DNA of 64,000 nt from Promethearchaeota archaeon (lineage in GTDB: Archaea > Asgardarchaeota > Lokiarchaeia > Sigyniarchaeales > SOKP01), in assembly GCA_019894975.1 (NCBI GenBank), contig JAGXNO010000013.1:10637-74636 (forward strand), written 5' to 3'. Position numbers and translations under genes: made by a program. Positions 4,982 to 54,947 of this stretch are shown in pieces. Within the stretch, counting starts at the first letter, position 1. Every line of letters starts with the position of its first letter. The notes below the pieces were generated by a model, which was not told the DNA's origin, did no database searches, and was given only the letters and a program-made list of their open reading frames with translations.

Positions 4982-6193
4982 CTATAAACTTAGGCAACAA
5001 TTTTTATATTTCTTTCCTGATCCGCAGGGGCAAAGTTCATTTCTTCCTATTTTTTTTGATTTAATATGTACTTGAGAATGAATTTTATTATTATCTTTTA
5101 TAGTCTTAGCTATTATCTTGAAGCGAGGTAAGGTATAGGTGTAAAACTTTTTCCATCCCTTACATAAAGGACTTATAATATCTAAATTTTGAAAATCATT
5201 GAATCGGAATTTTTGACAATCTCCATGACAAAACTGGATGAATGGGCACTCAATACAAGTTTTATTCCATTTTGCTTTTGAGGAGCCAAAATCAAGAAAT
5301 TTATTAGAATGAATTAAGGCATCCCAACTAGTTGTTTTCACATTTCCTAATAGAAGATCTTCCCTGACAAAAAAATCGCAAGGATATACACTCCCATCAT
5401 ATTCGACTACAAAATATTGACAACAATCATTTCCCATATAACAAACGCTATACTTTCCATAGACCAAGTAATTTAAAATTGAATCGAATAAACGAATTGA
5501 GACTTTATTAACGTCAGTTTTTATCCAGTTATCAAATAATTCGCAAAGAAATGTTCCCCAATCTTCTCCTGTAATGGAATATGGTTTAAGGTTATAATAT
5601 TCGTCAAATTCAACACAGGGGATATATTGATGATAGTAAAATTCGTGTTCTTTCAGGTATTGATAAATTTCCGTGGTTTTCTTAACAGATTTTTCATTTA
5701 CTAGAGTCAGAATATTGAATTCAACATCATTTTTTTTTAAATTCTCAATTCCACGCATTACTAAGTTATGTGTAGGAGTATTGCCTATCGTCTTTCTATA
5801 AAAATCATGAATGTCTGGTGGGCCATCTAGACTAACGCCAAGAAGAAATTTATATTCCGTAAAGAATTTTGCTAATTCGTCAGTAATCAATGTTCCATTT
5901 GTTTGAAGCCCATTACTTATGACTGCTCCCGGGGGTGCATGTTTAGTTTGAAGCTCTACGACTTTTTCCCAAAAATTAAGTCCTAATAATGTCGGTTCAC
6001 CTCCTTGCCACCCAAATGCATACTGATTATTTTGATCTGTCTGCATATAGCTAGCAATCATTGACTCTAAAGAACTATCTGACATTCTGGGTTTTTTCTC
6101 GACTGTATCAAGATGATCAATGTAAAAACAATATTCACATCTTAGATTACAATCCGCTGAAACTGGTTTTATTAATAGTGAGAAAGATTTCAT
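4982..6193 (-). CDS. Anaerobic sulfatase maturase (radical SAM/SPASM) with C-terminal SEC-C motif
   Basis: CNLRCEYC, WQGGEP, SPASM cysteines, GRNELCPCGSGKKYKNCC; directly downstream of a sulfatase. Confidence 0.92.
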   Translation of the reverse strand: MKSFSLLIKPVSADCNLRCEYCFYIDHLDTVEKKPRMSDSSLESMIASYMQTDQNNQYAFGWQGGEPTLLGLNFWEKVVELQTKHAPPGAVISNGLQTNGTLITDELAKFFTEYKFLLGVSLDGPPDIHDFYRKTIGNTPTHNLVMRGIENLKKNDVEFNILTLVNEKSVKKTTEIYQYLKEHEFYYHQYIPCVEFDEYYNLKPYSITGEDWGTFLCELFDNWIKTDVNKVSIRLFDSILNYLVYGKYSVCYMGNDCCQYFVVEYDGSVYPCDFFVREDLLLGNVKTTSWDALIHSNKFLDFGSSKAKWNKTCIECPFIQFCHGDCQKFRFNDFQNLDIISPLCKGWKKFYTYTLPRFKIIAKTIKDNNKIHSQVHIKSKKIGRNELCPCGSGKKYKNCCLSL

Positions 6194-43553: not shown

Positions 43554-43654
43554 CGCAGACAGAGGGATTCGAACCCTCGGGTGCATTCACACACTGGCTT
43601 TCAGGGAATAATTCCGTTCCAGGCCAGCGCCGTACCAGGCTAGGCAATGTCTGC
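43554..43654 (-). tRNA. tRNA-Ser(GGA) with 17-nt intron at 37/38 (43600-43616)
   Basis: GCAGACA/TGTCTGC acceptor, G73, CTGGC/GCCAG anticodon stem, long variable arm, GGTTCGAATCC; BHB with CTGG/CCTG central helix. Confidence 0.92.
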
Positions 43655-46991: not shown

Positions 46992-48053
46992 TCATACGTA
47001 TTCTATGATAGAATAATCTTTCTTTTTGAGTACACGATATTCGCGTTGAGTGAATAATTTAGTTAACTCTAGGTTCGTTAGTGTGTGTTTTGTTATTTGT
47101 CCAACTTTTATTCTTGATGGTTTTTTTACAAATGACATTAAAGGAATTAACTGATCGCTTAAATAATTATCAACAGGAATTTCATTAGAGATATATTTAA
47201 TCATTTCATCTGCAGCTAAACGACCTACTTTTTCTGAACTCATGTTTTTTTCACCTAATATTGTTCCTGTAGAAATTATTGCTCCTGTATCGGAAAGAGA
47301 CCATAAAGAAAGACCTACGCCTGAACTTAATGAGTCAACATATGTAATTTTTACATCCAGATCAATCTTTAAATTTCTTTTAAGATGTTGATATATGACC
47401 TTTTTTATCCTCTCACCAATGTTTCTATTCTTAAGGTGATTTGTGGCGATAATTTCACCTTTTATAATATCGAGATTTCCTAATTCAATAAGATTTATGG
47501 GTTTAATTTCATGTTGAGAGGAATGAAGGGTGCATCGTACTTGTGCTCCCCCCTTCGGATAAAAGCCATGTTCCTTTATTTCAACATCAATTTTTAATCC
47601 TGAATTTCTAAATAGTTGATAGGTGACCTCTTGAAGATAATTAAGACTCGGAGCCCATTTCCCAAAAGTTCCCCCTCCTTGTATATTAATATTAATTATT
47701 TCTGAGTTTCTAAAACCTAAACATGCTATCTGTATTGGTTGTAGTAGTAATCCTATACTTCCGGCAGTATTGATGTTTACATCGATATTAGATTTAATTT
47801 CAGTATTGGGAATTAATGTTATTTCTTTTGACCCAACCTGGCATTTTGATAAGTTACTATTAGTTAATTTCGCAAGTGTTTGTAATCCTATTAAATGTTG
47901 CATTCTTAACCCTGGTTTTGGTCTATTTGCCCTTATATTTTTTATTCGAATAGGCCGTGAGAATAAACTAGAGAATCCTGCTCCGATTCTAAGTATGGAC
48001 CCTCCACCTTCCCCAAAGGAACCATCAATTTCTAATTTGTCTCCTTGAGTCAT
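46992..48053 (-). CDS. rtcA: RNA 3'-terminal phosphate cyclase
   Basis: IDGSFGEGGGSILR, RPKPGL..QH, GFYPKGG, DQLI, HTLTN. Confidence 0.93.
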   Translation of the reverse strand: MTQGDKLEIDGSFGEGGGSILRIGAGFSSLFSRPIRIKNIRANRPKPGLRMQHLIGLQTLAKLTNSNLSKCQVGSKEITLIPNTEIKSNIDVNINTAGSIGLLLQPIQIACLGFRNSEIININIQGGGTFGKWAPSLNYLQEVTYQLFRNSGLKIDVEIKEHGFYPKGGAQVRCTLHSSQHEIKPINLIELGNLDIIKGEIIATNHLKNRNIGERIKKVIYQHLKRNLKIDLDVKITYVDSLSSGVGLSLWSLSDTGAIISTGTILGEKNMSSEKVGRLAADEMIKYISNEIPVDNYLSDQLIPLMSFVKKPSRIKVGQITKHTLTNLELTKLFTQREYRVLKKKDYSIIEYV

Positions 48054-51530: not shown

Positions 51531-51944
51531 TTATTCTACTACCTCTTCCTTATTAAGTGATTCTTTTAAAACTTTTACAGAATCGATAGCTTCTGATAAT
51601 AATAAATTCACTGTATCTTGATTAAGAATTCCTTCAGAGAGATTGGAAAACTCTTCAAGTTTTTTAATTAAATTTTTAAGTGCATCTAAACCTAATCCTT
51701 CTTGTATTATTTTTAATTCCTTAGTTGTTACACTCCCAATTTCCTTCATTGCGTCAATATGTTTAGTTTGTGTAACGTTAATTTCATTAGAAAATTCTCC
51801 TAATTTCTCTGTCAAATTTGAAATTTTTTCTTCGATGTTTGTATTAAGCTGGTTAAGTGATTCGTTAAGCGTTTGTATTGAAGCGCCCAATTGTGCAATC
51901 CTTTTATAAATATTCTGAAGAAGGTCGGTTAACATCTCAGCCAT
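51531..51944 (-). CDS. Coiled-coil protein
   Basis: Heptad-rich; MAEMLTDLLQNI vs MAEQLLDQMIQKI. Confidence 0.65.
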   Translation of the reverse strand: MAEMLTDLLQNIYKRIAQLGASIQTLNESLNQLNTNIEEKISNLTEKLGEFSNEINVTQTKHIDAMKEIGSVTTKELKIIQEGLGLDALKNLIKKLEEFSNLSEGILNQDTVNLLLSEAIDSVKVLKESLNKEEVVE

Positions 51945-52186
51945 ACATAATCAACTTTTTTAACTTTTAGTTTGGTAATTTACTAATGTCTCTTTTTGTT
52001 ACTTCAATTATAAATATAACAGATTACATCAATAAAAAAATATTCAATAAAAAAATATTTATCTTTTTTCTTATTTAATAAGAATATAAACACAAACAAG
52101 ATTAATAGCCATCGAAACGATTAATTATATAAAGGAGAAACAACACCAAATACTTTGAAAAACTGAGTTTGTACAAATAACAATAA

Positions 52187-52403
52187 GGGCCATTTGCTTA
52201 GCCAAAATTGGAAATTTATTCCCATTTCTAAATTGGTTATCAAGGTTTTTGAGTACGCTTGGCCAACAAGCGCAGGTCTTATAAATGACCTACAGACATA
52301 CAAAAAAGTATTAACAAAGTGTCTGTAATAAGTAAAAACCTGAGATCCGGGGTTCAAGTGATGATTGGGATTCCCTTCATCAGAACAAATCCCCGATGGC
52401 CCA
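52187..52403 (+). tRNA. Multi-intron tRNA, probably tRNA-Ile(UAU), with introns in the D-loop, anticodon loop and T-loop
   Basis: GGGCCAT/ATGGCCC+A acceptor; GCTT/AAGC D-stem; CAGGT/ACCTG with CT-TAT-AA; AGATC variable loop; CGGGG-TTCAA^AT-CCCCG T-arm; T-run after the 3' end. Confidence 0.8.
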
Positions 52404-52556
52404 TTTTTATCTTCTTTTTACTTTTAGAGTCAAAAAACTTCGTGAAACATCAATTTCACGTTTTTTTATATATCTTGGAGAAATACCTCCATATGGATTA
52501 GGATATTATTTTAAGGTATTGAAGATTTAATTGTAAAAAACAAATGATATAATGAT

Positions 52557-53249
52557 TTACTTATCCAAATTGGTACTAATTAGATCAAGTAACCATTTCT
52601 TTATTTGGGTAAGATTTTTAATTATACCAGGGATAAGATTCTCGGGAAAATTTTGTTCGTGATTTAATCTCTGAGCTGTTTCCATCCATTTATTTAATGC
52701 TAGCTGTACCAAACTAGCGCCTTCTGCTTCCATAAAAATTGGAACAACAGCGGCAGATTCTCTAGCATCACCAATTGCAAAATAAATTCTCCGATTACTC
52801 TCTTTTAACATTACTAAATTAGCACACTCATCAAGTTTTCTCTCAACTAAGATGCTTTTTAATATTTGATCTTTTAAATCTTGATCTTTAGAAACAAATA
52901 GCTCTTTCCTTCTTTTGAGAGTTGGTTGAATTTCAGATACAACTTTATCCCCTGTATCTCCTTGATTAAAATATTTTGTAATTCTAACACCATCTTCTAA
53001 AGCTTCGATAGCTGTAAATTTTTTTGTGTTGGAATAAAAAATTGCTTTAGAACCCGGTTGATCTTCGCTGGAAGATAATTTAGTATGAATACTTCTCATA
53101 ACCACAGAATTACATGTATGATAAGCGATTTCAAACAATTCTCTTGGGATTAAAGAAGCATACGGTTCTTCTATATGCTTAGAGAGCCACTGAGAAGTAA
53201 TAACCCCATTAAATTGTGATAAAAGTCGGTTTTCCATAACTATTCGCAA
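52557..53249 (-). CDS. Hypothetical protein
   Basis: 230-aa ORF co-oriented with SepSecS; no recognised motif. Confidence 0.65.
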   Translation of the reverse strand: MRIVMENRLLSQFNGVITSQWLSKHIEEPYASLIPRELFEIAYHTCNSVVMRSIHTKLSSSEDQPGSKAIFYSNTKKFTAIEALEDGVRITKYFNQGDTGDKVVSEIQPTLKRRKELFVSKDQDLKDQILKSILVERKLDECANLVMLKESNRRIYFAIGDARESAAVVPIFMEAEGASLVQLALNKWMETAQRLNHEQNFPENLIPGIIKNLTQIKKWLLDLISTNLDK

Positions 53250-53358
53250 TTTATTTGTAAATATTCAGTTAGAACAAATTTTATTAAAATATAGTACTTC
53301 TAGTTTTTAATTATTGTTATTTCTGATAAAGTAGAAATTTTAAAATTGTAGATGGTTT

Positions 53359-54723
53359 CTACTTTTGAGTTATTTGCTTATAAGCTTTTTCAAATCTTTC
53401 AACAGCAGAGATAATATCTTCTTTTTTTGAACCTATTGCAGCATTCATAACAATATAAGGTGTAGTATATTTTTCACAGCATGTACCAAATGTACTCTCT
53501 TTTGGATTATACACTCGAGGTCCCGTAACTCTTAGATTATATAGTGCTCCACCGATTGCAAATAAATGCTCTTCTTTTAGGTTTTTTAAAGATAATGCTA
53601 CTGCTACAGGATTGTAAATTTCGAGTATCCTCTCTTTAATACTTCTCGCCACAATTGACAATTTTTCTTCAAGTAATTTTCGATTTTGCTGTTGTTCTTC
53701 AATTAATTTTTGATATCCATTAATTCCTAAAGAGAGCATAGATATTAAAAAATTGACAACTGGAGTAGCTGATGCTCGTCCAGCATAAGATTGACTAATT
53801 TTTCTTATATTTTCTTTAATGGGTGAAGCAATTAAAGCCCCTCCAACGGGTGTAAGAAAATTTTTATCGGTTGATTGAATAATCGCATCAACTCTCCCTG
53901 CATCTATTGCTGAACGTATTAGTTTCATCCATTCTGGGCTTTGGACTCCATAAGCATTAATAATTATATGGACAAGATTTTTTTCTTCTGCGATTTTACT
54001 TATTTCTTTTAAATTATCAGGTTCTCGAGGAGGGAAAAAGCTCGTTAGTGATAGTATTGCATAACAATCATCATCTATACTAGGCATTATATCTTCTACT
54101 GGGATCCTGACAGCATCTCCATAAATTTTACCACTTATTATTTTAGGTTTAAGTCCCATTAATTCTATTGATTTTAATATTGATTTATGGTCAATTTGAG
54201 GAACTAATATTGTTCTCTTTATATTTGAGGTGTCATTTTCTTCGGGTCTTAAAGCTGCTAATGTTAATGATAAAGACATCCCTGTACATAATGGGACTAC
54301 TATTGCTTCTTTTATATTTGGCAAGCCAAAGTTCCTTAATATATCTCGAGCTAAATAGTTAGAAATCTCATACATTATAGACCCTCCCGGTGCTTTCGGT
54401 TGTGGGGCCGTAAGAAAACCACTTCTTCCAACCCCATGACAGAATCCTGCTGATGTTTTTAAATGGAGTTTTGATGCGATTCTAGCTTCTCTTTCCCCTA
54501 CTCTTGCAGCATCACTGTCTTTATCGGTATCCATATTTGAAAGTGTTTCTAATAAAAATTCAATTTGCTGATCACTCCATGGGTTTAGCGGAACACTCTT
54601 TTGTTCAAATAATGTTTTAATTGGTCTCATGAAGTTATTAAGAACTATTTGCCCTCTATCTAACATATTCTGAGGTATAGGAGTATTTTTAAAAAATTCA
54701 CTTATTTTATTAAAATCAACCAC
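53359..54723 (-). CDS. spcS: O-phosphoseryl-tRNA(Sec) selenium transferase
   Basis: GEREAR, HGVGRSG...QPKAPG, NAYG, QSTDKNFLTPVGG, YAGRAS. Confidence 0.95.
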   Translation of the reverse strand: MVDFNKISEFFKNTPIPQNMLDRGQIVLNNFMRPIKTLFEQKSVPLNPWSDQQIEFLLETLSNMDTDKDSDAARVGEREARIASKLHLKTSAGFCHGVGRSGFLTAPQPKAPGGSIMYEISNYLARDILRNFGLPNIKEAIVVPLCTGMSLSLTLAALRPEENDTSNIKRTILVPQIDHKSILKSIELMGLKPKIISGKIYGDAVRIPVEDIMPSIDDDCYAILSLTSFFPPREPDNLKEISKIAEEKNLVHIIINAYGVQSPEWMKLIRSAIDAGRVDAIIQSTDKNFLTPVGGALIASPIKENIRKISQSYAGRASATPVVNFLISMLSLGINGYQKLIEEQQQNRKLLEEKLSIVARSIKERILEIYNPVAVALSLKNLKEEHLFAIGGALYNLRVTGPRVYNPKESTFGTCCEKYTTPYIVMNAAIGSKKEDIISAVERFEKAYKQITQK

Positions 54724-54854
54724 TCAAAATCACTTTCAATTGATACATTATAAATAAAATTAATAAGGCATTTTTTCAAATAATTCTTTTGCTATTTTTT
54801 CATAATGGGAAATATAATAGAGGAAAGAAAAAAATTAATTTTATGGGAGGGAAT

Positions 54855-54947
54855 TGGCGGCCCTCGAGGGGAATCGAACCCCTATCCCTTCGCAGGATAA
54901 CTGGGTTTGAAGCCCAGTGTCAGAGACCACTCCAACCGTCAAGGGCC
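54855..54947 (-). tRNA. selC: tRNA-Sec(UCA), 9/4 fold, CCA encoded
   Basis: 9-bp acceptor GGCCCTTGA/TCGAGGGCC, 4-bp T stem, 7-bp D stem, CT-TCA-AA loop, long variable arm. Confidence 0.95.

What the first reader, a model, noticed from the sequence alone, without database searches (positions are those of the whole stretch)
52187..52403. Hidden tRNA shattered by 3-4 introns (about two-thirds of the gene is intron)
Seen: a 217-nt intergenic element contains all tRNA parts in order, separated by hairpin inserts. T-loop intron 52358-52388 (31 nt, site 58/59) has a clean GUUC/GAAC central helix, AA^G and AA^A bulges and a UGAUGA/UCAUCA intron helix, and removal restores UUCAAAU. Anticodon-loop intron about 52283-52335 (53 nt; UCUU/AAGU helix, ACAGACA/UGUCUGU stem) restores CU-UAU-AA. 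The D-loop insert (about 52204-52266) looks like two adjacent introns: the first pairs UAGCCAA/UUGGUUA, and the second pairs with the D-loop through CUUGGC. The exact D-loop junctions cannot be fixed by eye. Established: multi-intron tRNAs at non-canonical sites are best known from Thermoproteales. Inference: a broad-specificity splicing endonuclease and an ordered splicing pathway in this lineage; standard tRNA scans may miss the gene.
Basis: partly seen in the sequence, partly recalled or inferred. Interest (0 to 1): 0.85.

Follow-up and report, generated by a model that had tools for sequence, protein, structure and literature searches.

The report
Four-intron isoleucine tRNA, self-guiding intron
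This is a real isoleucine tRNA gene of a Loki (Asgard) archaeon, cut into five pieces by four introns; it carries the UAU anticodon that archaea normally avoid, and the one intron its relatives never lose looks like a built-in guide that could get the anticodon chemically modified before splicing, as happens in eukaryotes.

Summary
The element is a tRNA-Ile(UAU) gene with four introns (17/17a, 21/22, 38/39, 58/59; 142 of 217 nt). The spliced 75-mer is a clean cloverleaf, and relatives lacking the D- and T-arm introns fix those junctions.

The new part lies elsewhere. The agmatidine enzyme TiaS was not found in any searched genome of this Loki order, AUA still means Ile, and this tRNA supplies the decoder. 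Its anticodon intron is kept in every copy found. In 121 of 128 distinct introns, an ACA triplet lies 13-14 nt after a strand pairing with exon 29-32, usually beyond a covarying stem. That is H/ACA lower-stem geometry, placing U34 at n+15. I infer (about 55%) a cis guide that loads Cbf5 to make Psi34, perhaps Psi36. It is not a canonical H/ACA RNA (no K-turn stem), and no RNA data were available.

The parts
52187..52403 (+). pre-tRNA-Ile(UAU) gene, five exons and four introns, no encoded CCA
   Evidence: spliced 75-mer called tRNA-Ile(tat) by ARAGORN; 113 distinct orthologous genes
52187..52203 (+). exon 1, tRNA positions 1-17
52204..52233 (+). intron A, 30 nt, site 17/17a; central helix U12-U13-A14-G15 with CUAA
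   Evidence: only register with 4/4 pairs; UCAG/CUGA change on both sides in L007; cleanly called in 18 of 113 genes
52234..52239 (+). exon 2, a 6-nt micro-exon, positions 17a-21
   Evidence: matches the uninterrupted D loop of relatives such as L002 and L015
52240..52267 (+). intron B, 28 nt, site 21/22; central helix U17a-G18-G19-U20 with GCCA, intron helix CAAG/CUUG
   Evidence: present in 81 of 113 genes, 79 with 4/4 pairs; absent in L015, L016, L025
52268..52284 (+). exon 3, positions 22-38, anticodon UAU at 52280-52282
52285..52337 (+). anticodon intron, 53 nt, site 38/39; central helix U33-U34-A35-U36 with GUAA (52332-52335)
   Evidence: 4/4 pairs in 106 of 106 introns with GUAA, AUAA, AUGA, GUAG and AUAG variants; first intron pair U-A or G-C in 106 of 106
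52287..52290 (+). proposed 3' guide strand GACC, pairs with exon G29-G30-U31-C32 (52275-52278)
   Evidence: 4 pairs in 105 of 111 introns of the 38/39 type; minimum-energy fold of this arm, z -3.5
52291..52327 (+). intron stem (52291-52298 with 52320-52327), proposed lower stem P1, closed by a variable A/U-rich loop
   Evidence: seven columns paired in nearly all of 97 genomes with several pair types each
52300..52302 (+). ACA triplet, 13 nt after the partner of C32; proposed ACA box
   Evidence: 13 nt in 109, 14 nt in 12, neither in 7 of 128 introns, register chosen blind to ACA; 1, 3 and 1 changes on a protein tree against 15, 28 and 32 at flanking columns
52338..52357 (+). exon 4, positions 39-58
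52358..52388 (+). T-loop intron, 31 nt, site 58/59; strict bulge-helix-bulge
   Evidence: 58/59 in 14 and 59/60 in 31 of 113 genes
52389..52403 (+). exon 5, positions 59-73, discriminator A73
52404..52425 (+). T-rich tract, likely terminator
   Evidence: sequence; T runs follow the gene in relatives; inference
52125..52133 (+). TATA-like box 54 nt upstream of G1; may serve this gene or the divergent ORF
   Evidence: sequence; inference, not tested

Best explanation
The locus encodes the AUA-reading tRNA-Ile(UAU) of a Loki archaeon that has no TiaS. EndA removes four introns at bulge-helix-bulge motifs and the five exons are joined (identity and junctions about 0.93). Three introns are optional passengers that come and go between relatives. 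The anticodon intron is functional and has two mutually exclusive folds. In fold 1, GACC pairs with exon 29-32, stacks on the intron stem (about 12 bp in all), and is followed by one free base and ACA. This is the lower half of an H/ACA guide and also has the shape of a T-arm/acceptor minihelix, with U34 at n+15. Cbf5-Nop10-Gar1 would bind the stem and ACA and convert U34, perhaps also U36 of U-A-U-A, to pseudouridine. In fold 2, U33-U36 pair with GUAA and EndA cuts. Psi34 would keep Elp3 off U34 and limit misreading of AUG. Shown: sequence, registers, conservation, gene presence and absence. Inferred: splicing in vivo, any pseudouridine, the enzyme, and the decoding benefit.
For: Cloverleaf and registers. 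TiaS domain PF08489 in 0 of 41 genomes of the order and 0 of 68 of the family, but 174 of 301 of the phylum; a second TiaS domain agrees. AUA is 3.3% of codons and exchanges with Ile codons 62% and Met 2.4%. Only elongator and initiator CAU tRNAs were found in this genome. A pattern that allowed intron-less genes found none in families f1 and f2. ACA spacing holds across both intron sites (37/38 and 38/39), in three Loki families and in two distant families, including Atabeyarchaeia-2, where most of the intron cannot be aligned. A short guide pairing goes with a longer stem, so 11-13 of the 13 positions are paired in most. The G facing C32 is invariant even in 31 introns where it has no partner in the splice fold. 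By inspection, Ile2-type CAU genes of TiaS-positive Asgard genomes are intron-less or have short introns without the module. Cbf5, Nop10, a weak Gar1 match and Elp3 are present. Precedent: n+15 rule, 3'-side pairing matters most, ACA allows two Psi at unpaired UVUN (PMC7075261); Cbf5 self-modifies RNAs through 2-4 bp cis duplexes (PMC11077068); yeast needs the Ile(UAU) intron for Psi34/36 and otherwise gains ncm5U (PMC6582322); archaeal U34 mutants gain cnm5U and bind AUG (PMC3895270). The tRNA-Tyr intron of the same genomes holds a K-turn cis guide aimed at U35.
Against: No upper stem, K-turn or 5' pocket pairing. U33 faces a U in most copies, and the 5'-most unpaired U is normally the one modified (PMC7075261), so U33 must be held by a U-U or U33-A38 pair. 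The exon side of the guide helix is nearly invariant, so there are few two-sided changes. In the 37/38 type the pairing is 2-3 bp and its computed probability in free RNA is near 0. In the 28-35 nt introns of the two distant families, ACA sits in a 5-7 nt loop rather than a tail. 7 of 128 introns lack ACA at 13-14 nt: two have AUA or AAA at 13, and five, including both genomes of genus g5 and one of family f4, do not. Pus10, TruA and TruD are also present. Intron-less yeast showed no AUG misreading in a reporter (PMC6582322). No reads could be examined.
Confidence: 0.55

Rival explanations
1. The intron is needed for Psi34/36, but the enzyme is a stand-alone synthase: Pus10 reading the fold as a T-arm/acceptor minihelix (12 bp, one base, ACA in place of CCA, U34 in the place of U55), or TruA acting like yeast Pus1.
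For: The geometry equals T-stem plus acceptor stem plus discriminator. Pus10 and TruA are present. Pus10 is predicted to act on a T-arm-like hairpin in a small RNA (PMC11077068). Yeast Pus1, of the TruA family (own knowledge), is intron-dependent on this tRNA (PMC6582322).
Against: The triplet is ACA, never CCA, and its two variants are AUA and AAA, the ANA pattern of Cbf5 sites (PMC7075261). It is internal, not a 3' end. The loop length varies from 6 to 8 nt.
Confidence: 0.2
2. U34 stays unmodified or gets another modification. The intron only shields the anticodon from Elp3 or slows splicing, and ACA binds some other protein.
For: Mycoplasma mobile is a known case of AUA decoding by a UAU anticodon without TilS (PMC3575796, title and abstract; unmodified U34 can discriminate, as cited in PMC6582322). 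Elp3 is present. Fold 1 is more stable than the splice fold in this copy, -13.2 against -7.7 kcal/mol.
Against: Shielding ends when the intron is cut, so it gives no lasting protection. It does not explain a fixed 13-14 nt spacing.
Confidence: 0.12
3. The anticodon intron is an old neutral passenger, and ACA and GACC are kept by shared descent or by the needs of splicing.
For: The genomes are related. Intron B is also widespread, 81 of 113. Positions 2-4 of the intron take part in the splice fold.
Against: Neighbours of ACA change 15-32 times on the tree while ACA changes 1-3 times. ACA is unpaired in the splice fold. The spacing survives a shift of the intron site and a halving of its length.
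Confidence: 0.1
4. The gene is a pseudo-tRNA, or it is charged with Met because AUA is reassigned.
For: U9; the Atabeyarchaeia-2 homologue is flagged 'possible pseudo' by tRNAscan-SE.
Against: All stems pair. It is conserved in over 100 genomes, with acceptor stems that differ yet stay paired. No other AUA reader was found. AUA columns behave as Ile.
Confidence: 0.03

Closest known systems
Multi-intron tRNA genes of Asgard archaea (PMC11291895; bioRxiv 10.64898/2026.10.13.758758) and Thermoproteales
   Same: Several BHB introns at non-canonical sites, missed by annotators, gained and lost repeatedly; up to five insertions per gene reported.
   Different: Those studies centre on Freyr-, Jordi- and Atabeyarchaeia and treat introns as passengers; word searches of the preprint found nothing on Ile, TiaS or guides (I read two of its seven parts). 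Here one intron is fixed and structured.
tRNA-Ile(UAU) of Korarchaeum cryptofilum and Nanoarchaeum equitans (2 of 167 archaea, PMC6000648) and of Mycoplasma mobile
   Same: U34 in place of modified C34; the Korarchaeum gene also has an intron.
   Different: Here it spans a whole order (UAU gene in all four families) plus two distant Asgard families, in step with TiaS loss. I could not examine the Korarchaeum or Nanoarchaeum introns.
Eukaryotic tRNA-Ile(UAU) with intron-dependent Psi34/Psi36 by Pus1 (PMC6582322; three-intron gene of Cyanidioschyzon merolae, PMC9602550)
   Same: Same anticodon, retained anticodon intron, same predicted product, competition with Elp3.
   Different: Stand-alone Pus1 there; an ACA module in the intron here. 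Most other Asgard families keep TiaS, so convergence is at least as likely as shared descent. Not tested on a tree.
Archaeal H/ACA guides: H. volcanii sR-h45 SL2 (PMC7075261), Sulfolobales Sso1/sR115 for Psi35 of pre-tRNA-Tyr (PMC2651775), self-modifying atypical guides sR563, sR109 and single-3'-guide sR148 (PMC11077068)
   Same: Lower stem, ACA, n+15 spacing, 3'-side pairing, UVUN target, short cis duplex.
   Different: No upper stem or K-turn, no 5' guide; circularly permuted inside its own substrate. Known atypical guides lack the opposite half (lower stem and ACA).
Box C/D guide in the pre-tRNA-Trp intron of Haloferax and relatives (described in PMC6582322, PMC3491384)
   Same: A tRNA intron that directs modification of its own tRNA at position 34.
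   Different: 2'-O-methylation by C/D boxes; no conserved C/D boxes here.

Membership tests
Archaeal tRNA gene with EndA (BHB) introns | Cloverleaf after intron removal | tested here: met
   75 nt, acceptor 7, D 4, anticodon 5, T 5 pairs; ARAGORN tRNA-Ile(tat)
Archaeal tRNA gene with EndA (BHB) introns | 4-bp central helix with 3-nt bulges at each junction | tested here: met
   4/4 at one register for each intron; exon-side helix 1, 1 (0 after A is removed), 0 and 3 bp, so three motifs are of the relaxed type
Archaeal tRNA gene with EndA (BHB) introns | Relatives without the insert give the same mature sequence | tested here: met
   met for A, B and T; no intron-less relative for the anticodon intron, whose junction rests on covariation
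Archaeal tRNA gene with EndA (BHB) introns | Endonuclease able to cut relaxed motifs | tested here: met
   two EndA genes; L031 shows the Tyr/His/Lys motifs and an L1-like insert, L032 lacks them (read by eye against own knowledge and PMC5829648)
Archaeal tRNA gene with EndA (BHB) introns | Spliced product and intermediates in vivo | not testable with these tools
Archaeal tRNA-Ile2 (agmatidine-CAU) | C34 in the gene | tested here: not met
   U34 in all copies; a CAU inside the intron is not conserved
Archaeal tRNA-Ile2 (agmatidine-CAU) | TiaS in the genome | tested here: not met
   genome 95% complete, relatives up to 100%
tRNA-Ile(UAU) | UAU anticodon, A73, class I body, AUA read as Ile | tested here: met
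tRNA-Ile(UAU) | Charging with Ile and discrimination against AUG | not testable with these tools
   needs biochemistry
Canonical archaeal H/ACA guide RNA | Lower stem followed by ACA/ANA | tested here: met
   the stem is circularly permuted, and ACA lies in a small loop in the short introns
Canonical archaeal H/ACA guide RNA | Target U at n+15 +/- 1 with 3'-side pairing | tested here: met
   C32 partner at 13 or 14, so U34 at 15 or 16; 4 pairs in 105 of 111 (38/39 type), 2-3 pairs in most of the 37/38 type
Canonical archaeal H/ACA guide RNA | 5'-side pocket pairing | tested here: not met
   no conserved complement to 36-41 in the intron 3' part
Canonical archaeal H/ACA guide RNA | Upper stem with K-turn or K-loop | tested here: not met
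   no conserved tandem G-A motif; no Rfam match
Canonical archaeal H/ACA guide RNA | Cbf5-dependent pseudouridylation | not testable with these tools
   proteins are encoded; activity unknown
Box C/D guide in a tRNA intron | Conserved C and D boxes | tested here: not met
   the UGAUGA in the T-loop intron is paired in its stem and is not shared by T-loop introns of relatives

The most novel reading that the evidence does not exclude
Loki, and probably Odin and Atabey archaea, replaced agmatidine decoding of AUA with a UAU tRNA whose intron is a minimal, circularly permuted half of an H/ACA RNA (guide strand, lower stem, ACA; no K-turn). It makes Cbf5 write Psi-A-Psi into its own anticodon before splicing: an RNA-guided archaeal route to the eukaryotic solution, and a selective reason for keeping a tRNA intron.
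Probability: 0.5. Interest if true: 0.9.

Novelty: new variant of a known kind. Interest (0 to 1): 0.74.

Why it matters
The intron count alone is ordinary for Asgard archaea. Two things matter. First, an entire Loki order appears to read AUA without TiaS, which surveys of archaeal tRNA sets list for only two species; this bears on how the eukaryotic Psi-A-Psi tRNA could arise and on which tRNAs annotators wrongly drop as pseudo. Second, why tRNA introns persist is an open question. This gene has its own internal control: optional introns next to one fixed intron with a defined motif. The prediction can be tested with a short transcript and recombinant Cbf5-Nop10-Gar1, or on tRNA from a cultured Loki strain.

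Tried and rejected
A hidden CAU anticodon inside nested introns: rejected, that CAU is not conserved. UAA or UAG (Leu) readings: rejected by the 38/39 register and the short variable loop. Canonical 37/38 site: 1 of 4 pairs in 105 of 106. Obligatory splicing order: not needed. K-turn or C/D boxes in the Ile introns: not conserved. The excised circular intron as a trans guide for the mature tRNA: no upper stem and no 5'-side complement. ACA pairing with UGU of the stem: ACA persists where UGU is absent. AUA as Met: rejected. One search used a wrong family (TIGR03280 is not TiaS) and is ignored. PF22641 hits in G026 and G317 are 60-residue matches in a ~385-aa paralogue also present in TiaS-positive genomes, not TiaS. 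My whole-genome tRNA census found about 44 genes but missed this four-intron gene, so it cannot exclude another heavily split CAU gene. The column table had a register bug and is replaced. Some 4- and 5-intron counts are mis-split single inserts. Searches used patterns that presuppose intron bases and are not used for presence counts; introns do enter the conservation counts, but that pattern ends before the stem and ACA. Marck and Grosjean 2003 and Zhou et al. 2011 were not held. No UAU gene was found by pattern in TiaS-less families f5, f6, f16, f20 and f25; extra introns may hide it.

Full report
Setting. The window is contig C44 of a 3.9-Mb, 31.6% GC genome, 95% complete and 8.6% contaminated. 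Its relatives are labelled mostly Promethearchaeota or Promethearchaeia, that is Loki archaea. The element lies between a coiled-coil ORF (51531-51944) and an Asgard selenocysteine-system gene (NF045535), near SepSecS and tRNA-Sec. ARAGORN and Rfam do not report it.

The gene. A DNA search found the same site in about 22 genomes of the genus, with different intron sets, so the junctions can be read by comparison. Removing 52204-52233, 52240-52267, 52285-52337 and 52358-52388 gives 75 nt that ARAGORN calls tRNA-Ile(tat), with all four stems paired. Each intron has one register with a full 4-bp central helix: 17/17a, 21/22, 38/39 and 58/59. For the anticodon intron several placements give the same product. 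Covariation decides: at 38/39 the helix is complete in 106 of 106 introns, with GUAA, AUAA, AUGA, GUAG and AUAG variants, and the first intron pair switches between U-A and G-C; at 37/38 only one pair forms in 105 of 106. Three of the four motifs have almost no exon-side helix, which needs a relaxed-specificity endonuclease. The genome has two EndA genes, as described for Asgard archaea (PMC5829648). Introns A and B flank a 6-nt exon and compete for it, but each motif forms with or without the other, so no order is forced.

How unusual is the intron load? Among 113 distinct genes of the family most have two or three introns and about a dozen have four; sites 21/22, 59/60, 45/46, 17/17a and 58/59 come and go, and the window's combination occurs once. 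Up to five insertions per gene and D-arm introns missed by annotators are already described for Asgard archaea. This part of the finding is real but known in kind.

The anticodon. tRNA-Ile(UAU) was found in 2 of 167 archaea (PMC6000648), because U34 risks reading AUG: archaeal U34 mutants gain cnm5U and bind AUG (PMC3895270). TiaS was not found in this genome, in 41 genomes of the order or in 68 of the family, but was found in 174 of 301 of the phylum in a clade-wise pattern; a second domain agrees. AUA makes up 3.3% of codons and swaps with Ile codons, not Met. Only elongator and initiator CAU genes were seen, with the limit that my census misses four-intron genes. UAU genes were found in all four families of the order and in two further TiaS-less families. 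One of these genomes is Atabeyarchaeia-2, whose gene matches the coordinates of an 'Ile TAT, possible pseudo' entry in PMC11291895. Another has the size of Odinarchaeum (from memory). So this tRNA is very probably the only AUA reader.

The fixed intron. Searches that did not presuppose an intron found no intron-less copy in the Loki families. In 128 distinct introns I chose the best pairing of the intron start with exon 29-32 without looking at ACA. ACA then lies 13 nt after the partner of C32 in 109 and 14 nt in 12; two have AUA or AAA at 13; five lack it. On a tree of flanking proteins from 97 genomes the three ACA columns change 1, 3 and 1 times, their neighbours 15, 28 and 32 times, and the stem between guide strand and ACA stays paired through several pair types. 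Kin are not independent, but the spacing holds at both intron sites and in introns of 28 to 60 nt. Where the guide pairing is short (2-3 bp, 37/38 type) the stem is long (9-10 bp); where it is 4 bp the stem is about 8 bp. In this window the guide fold is the minimum-energy fold of the arm and beats the splice fold. Ile2-type CAU genes of TiaS-positive Asgard genomes show no such module by inspection.

Mechanism (inferred). [quoted passage not shown] The precursor reproduces this in cis, with U34 at 15 or 16 and the target U-A-U-A. Cbf5 is known to modify RNAs through 2-4 bp cis duplexes, with reduced need for L7Ae (PMC11077068). Cbf5, Nop10 and a weak Gar1 match are present, as is Elp3. In yeast the intron of this tRNA is required for Psi34/36 and its loss lets Elongator modify U34, although no misreading was seen in a reporter (PMC6582322). 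I therefore propose that fold 1 gets the anticodon pseudouridylated and fold 2 is then cut by EndA. A parallel exists in the same genomes: the tRNA-Tyr intron has a K-turn 10 nt above a pocket that leaves U35-A36 free, in 27 of 27 sequences. I saw it; earlier notes of this scan had reported it in other genomes, which is agreement and not independent proof.

Limits. The module fails two defining features of canonical H/ACA RNAs, so it is not filed as one. U33 could be the target instead of U34. The guide fold is weak in the 37/38 type, and in the shortest introns ACA sits in a small loop. The same geometry is a T-arm/acceptor mimic, so Pus10 is a serious rival, and TruA and TruD are present. 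No RNA reads were available. Literature searches found no report of TiaS loss in Loki archaea or of such an intron module, but the library lacks most subscription papers. The scan's index had first-reader notes on the UAU anticodon and none on the ACA module.

Verdict. A functional four-intron tRNA-Ile(UAU), about 0.93. An intron-borne element that controls U34 modification by some enzyme, about 0.75; by Cbf5 in cis, about 0.55. New variant of a known kind; interest 0.74.

Noticed in passing
G000 C142:12935-13085 (-) and C69:877-1031 (+); L307, L311, L313, L314, L320, L326-L345: tRNA-Tyr(GUA) introns carry a K-turn stem 10 nt above a pocket; the 3' flank pairs with exon 29-34 (6 pairs in 24 of 27) and the 5' flank with G37 and the intron start, leaving U35-A36 free: a candidate cis guide for Psi35. 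Earlier scan notes describe it in other genomes.
   Followed up: partly
window 52441-52460: Palindrome CGTGAAA-N6-TTTCACG kept in 21 orthologous loci, also where the tRNA is inverted, and at about nine intergenic sites in this genome with different spacers. Operator, terminator or small repeat; unexplained.
   Followed up: partly
L016, L025 (and G021); L015: At the same site the tRNA is inverted in some genomes, and its acceptor stem differs sharply between relatives (GGGCCAT, GGACTCG, GCTCCCG, GGTCCAG) while the anticodon intron module stays.
   Followed up: no
G000 whole genome: About 44 tRNA genes by an insertion-tolerant profile against 29 ARAGORN calls, several of them wrong; most non-canonical introns are 28-35 nt. 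Two Tyr and three Phe genes may reflect the 8.6% contamination.
   Followed up: partly
G000 C111:16279-16417 (-); L266, L270, L271, L273, L281, L282, L287: Elongator tRNA-Met introns across Asgard families share a short AAGGGY..GA-like motif, possibly a pairing site for a C/D guide of Cm34.
   Followed up: no
L048:~280-355 (G316, TiaS-positive family): An intron-less tRNA with UAU anticodon in a genome that has TiaS; body unlike the Loki gene, perhaps from a mobile element or contamination.
   Followed up: no
L132 (- strand, near 5891) and L197: A further insert lies at the 3' end of the anticodon intron, suggesting nested or adjacent introns; here an ordered pathway could apply.
   Followed up: no
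families f5, f6, f16, f20, f25: TiaS not found and no UAU tRNA found by pattern; their AUA reader is unexplained.
   Followed up: partly
window 52557-54947 and 43554-43654: Selenocysteine cluster (NF045535 gene, SepSecS, tRNA-Sec) next to the gene; a tRNA-Ser(GGA) with a 17-nt intron on the - strand; RNA 3'-phosphate cyclase at 46992-48053.
   Followed up: no
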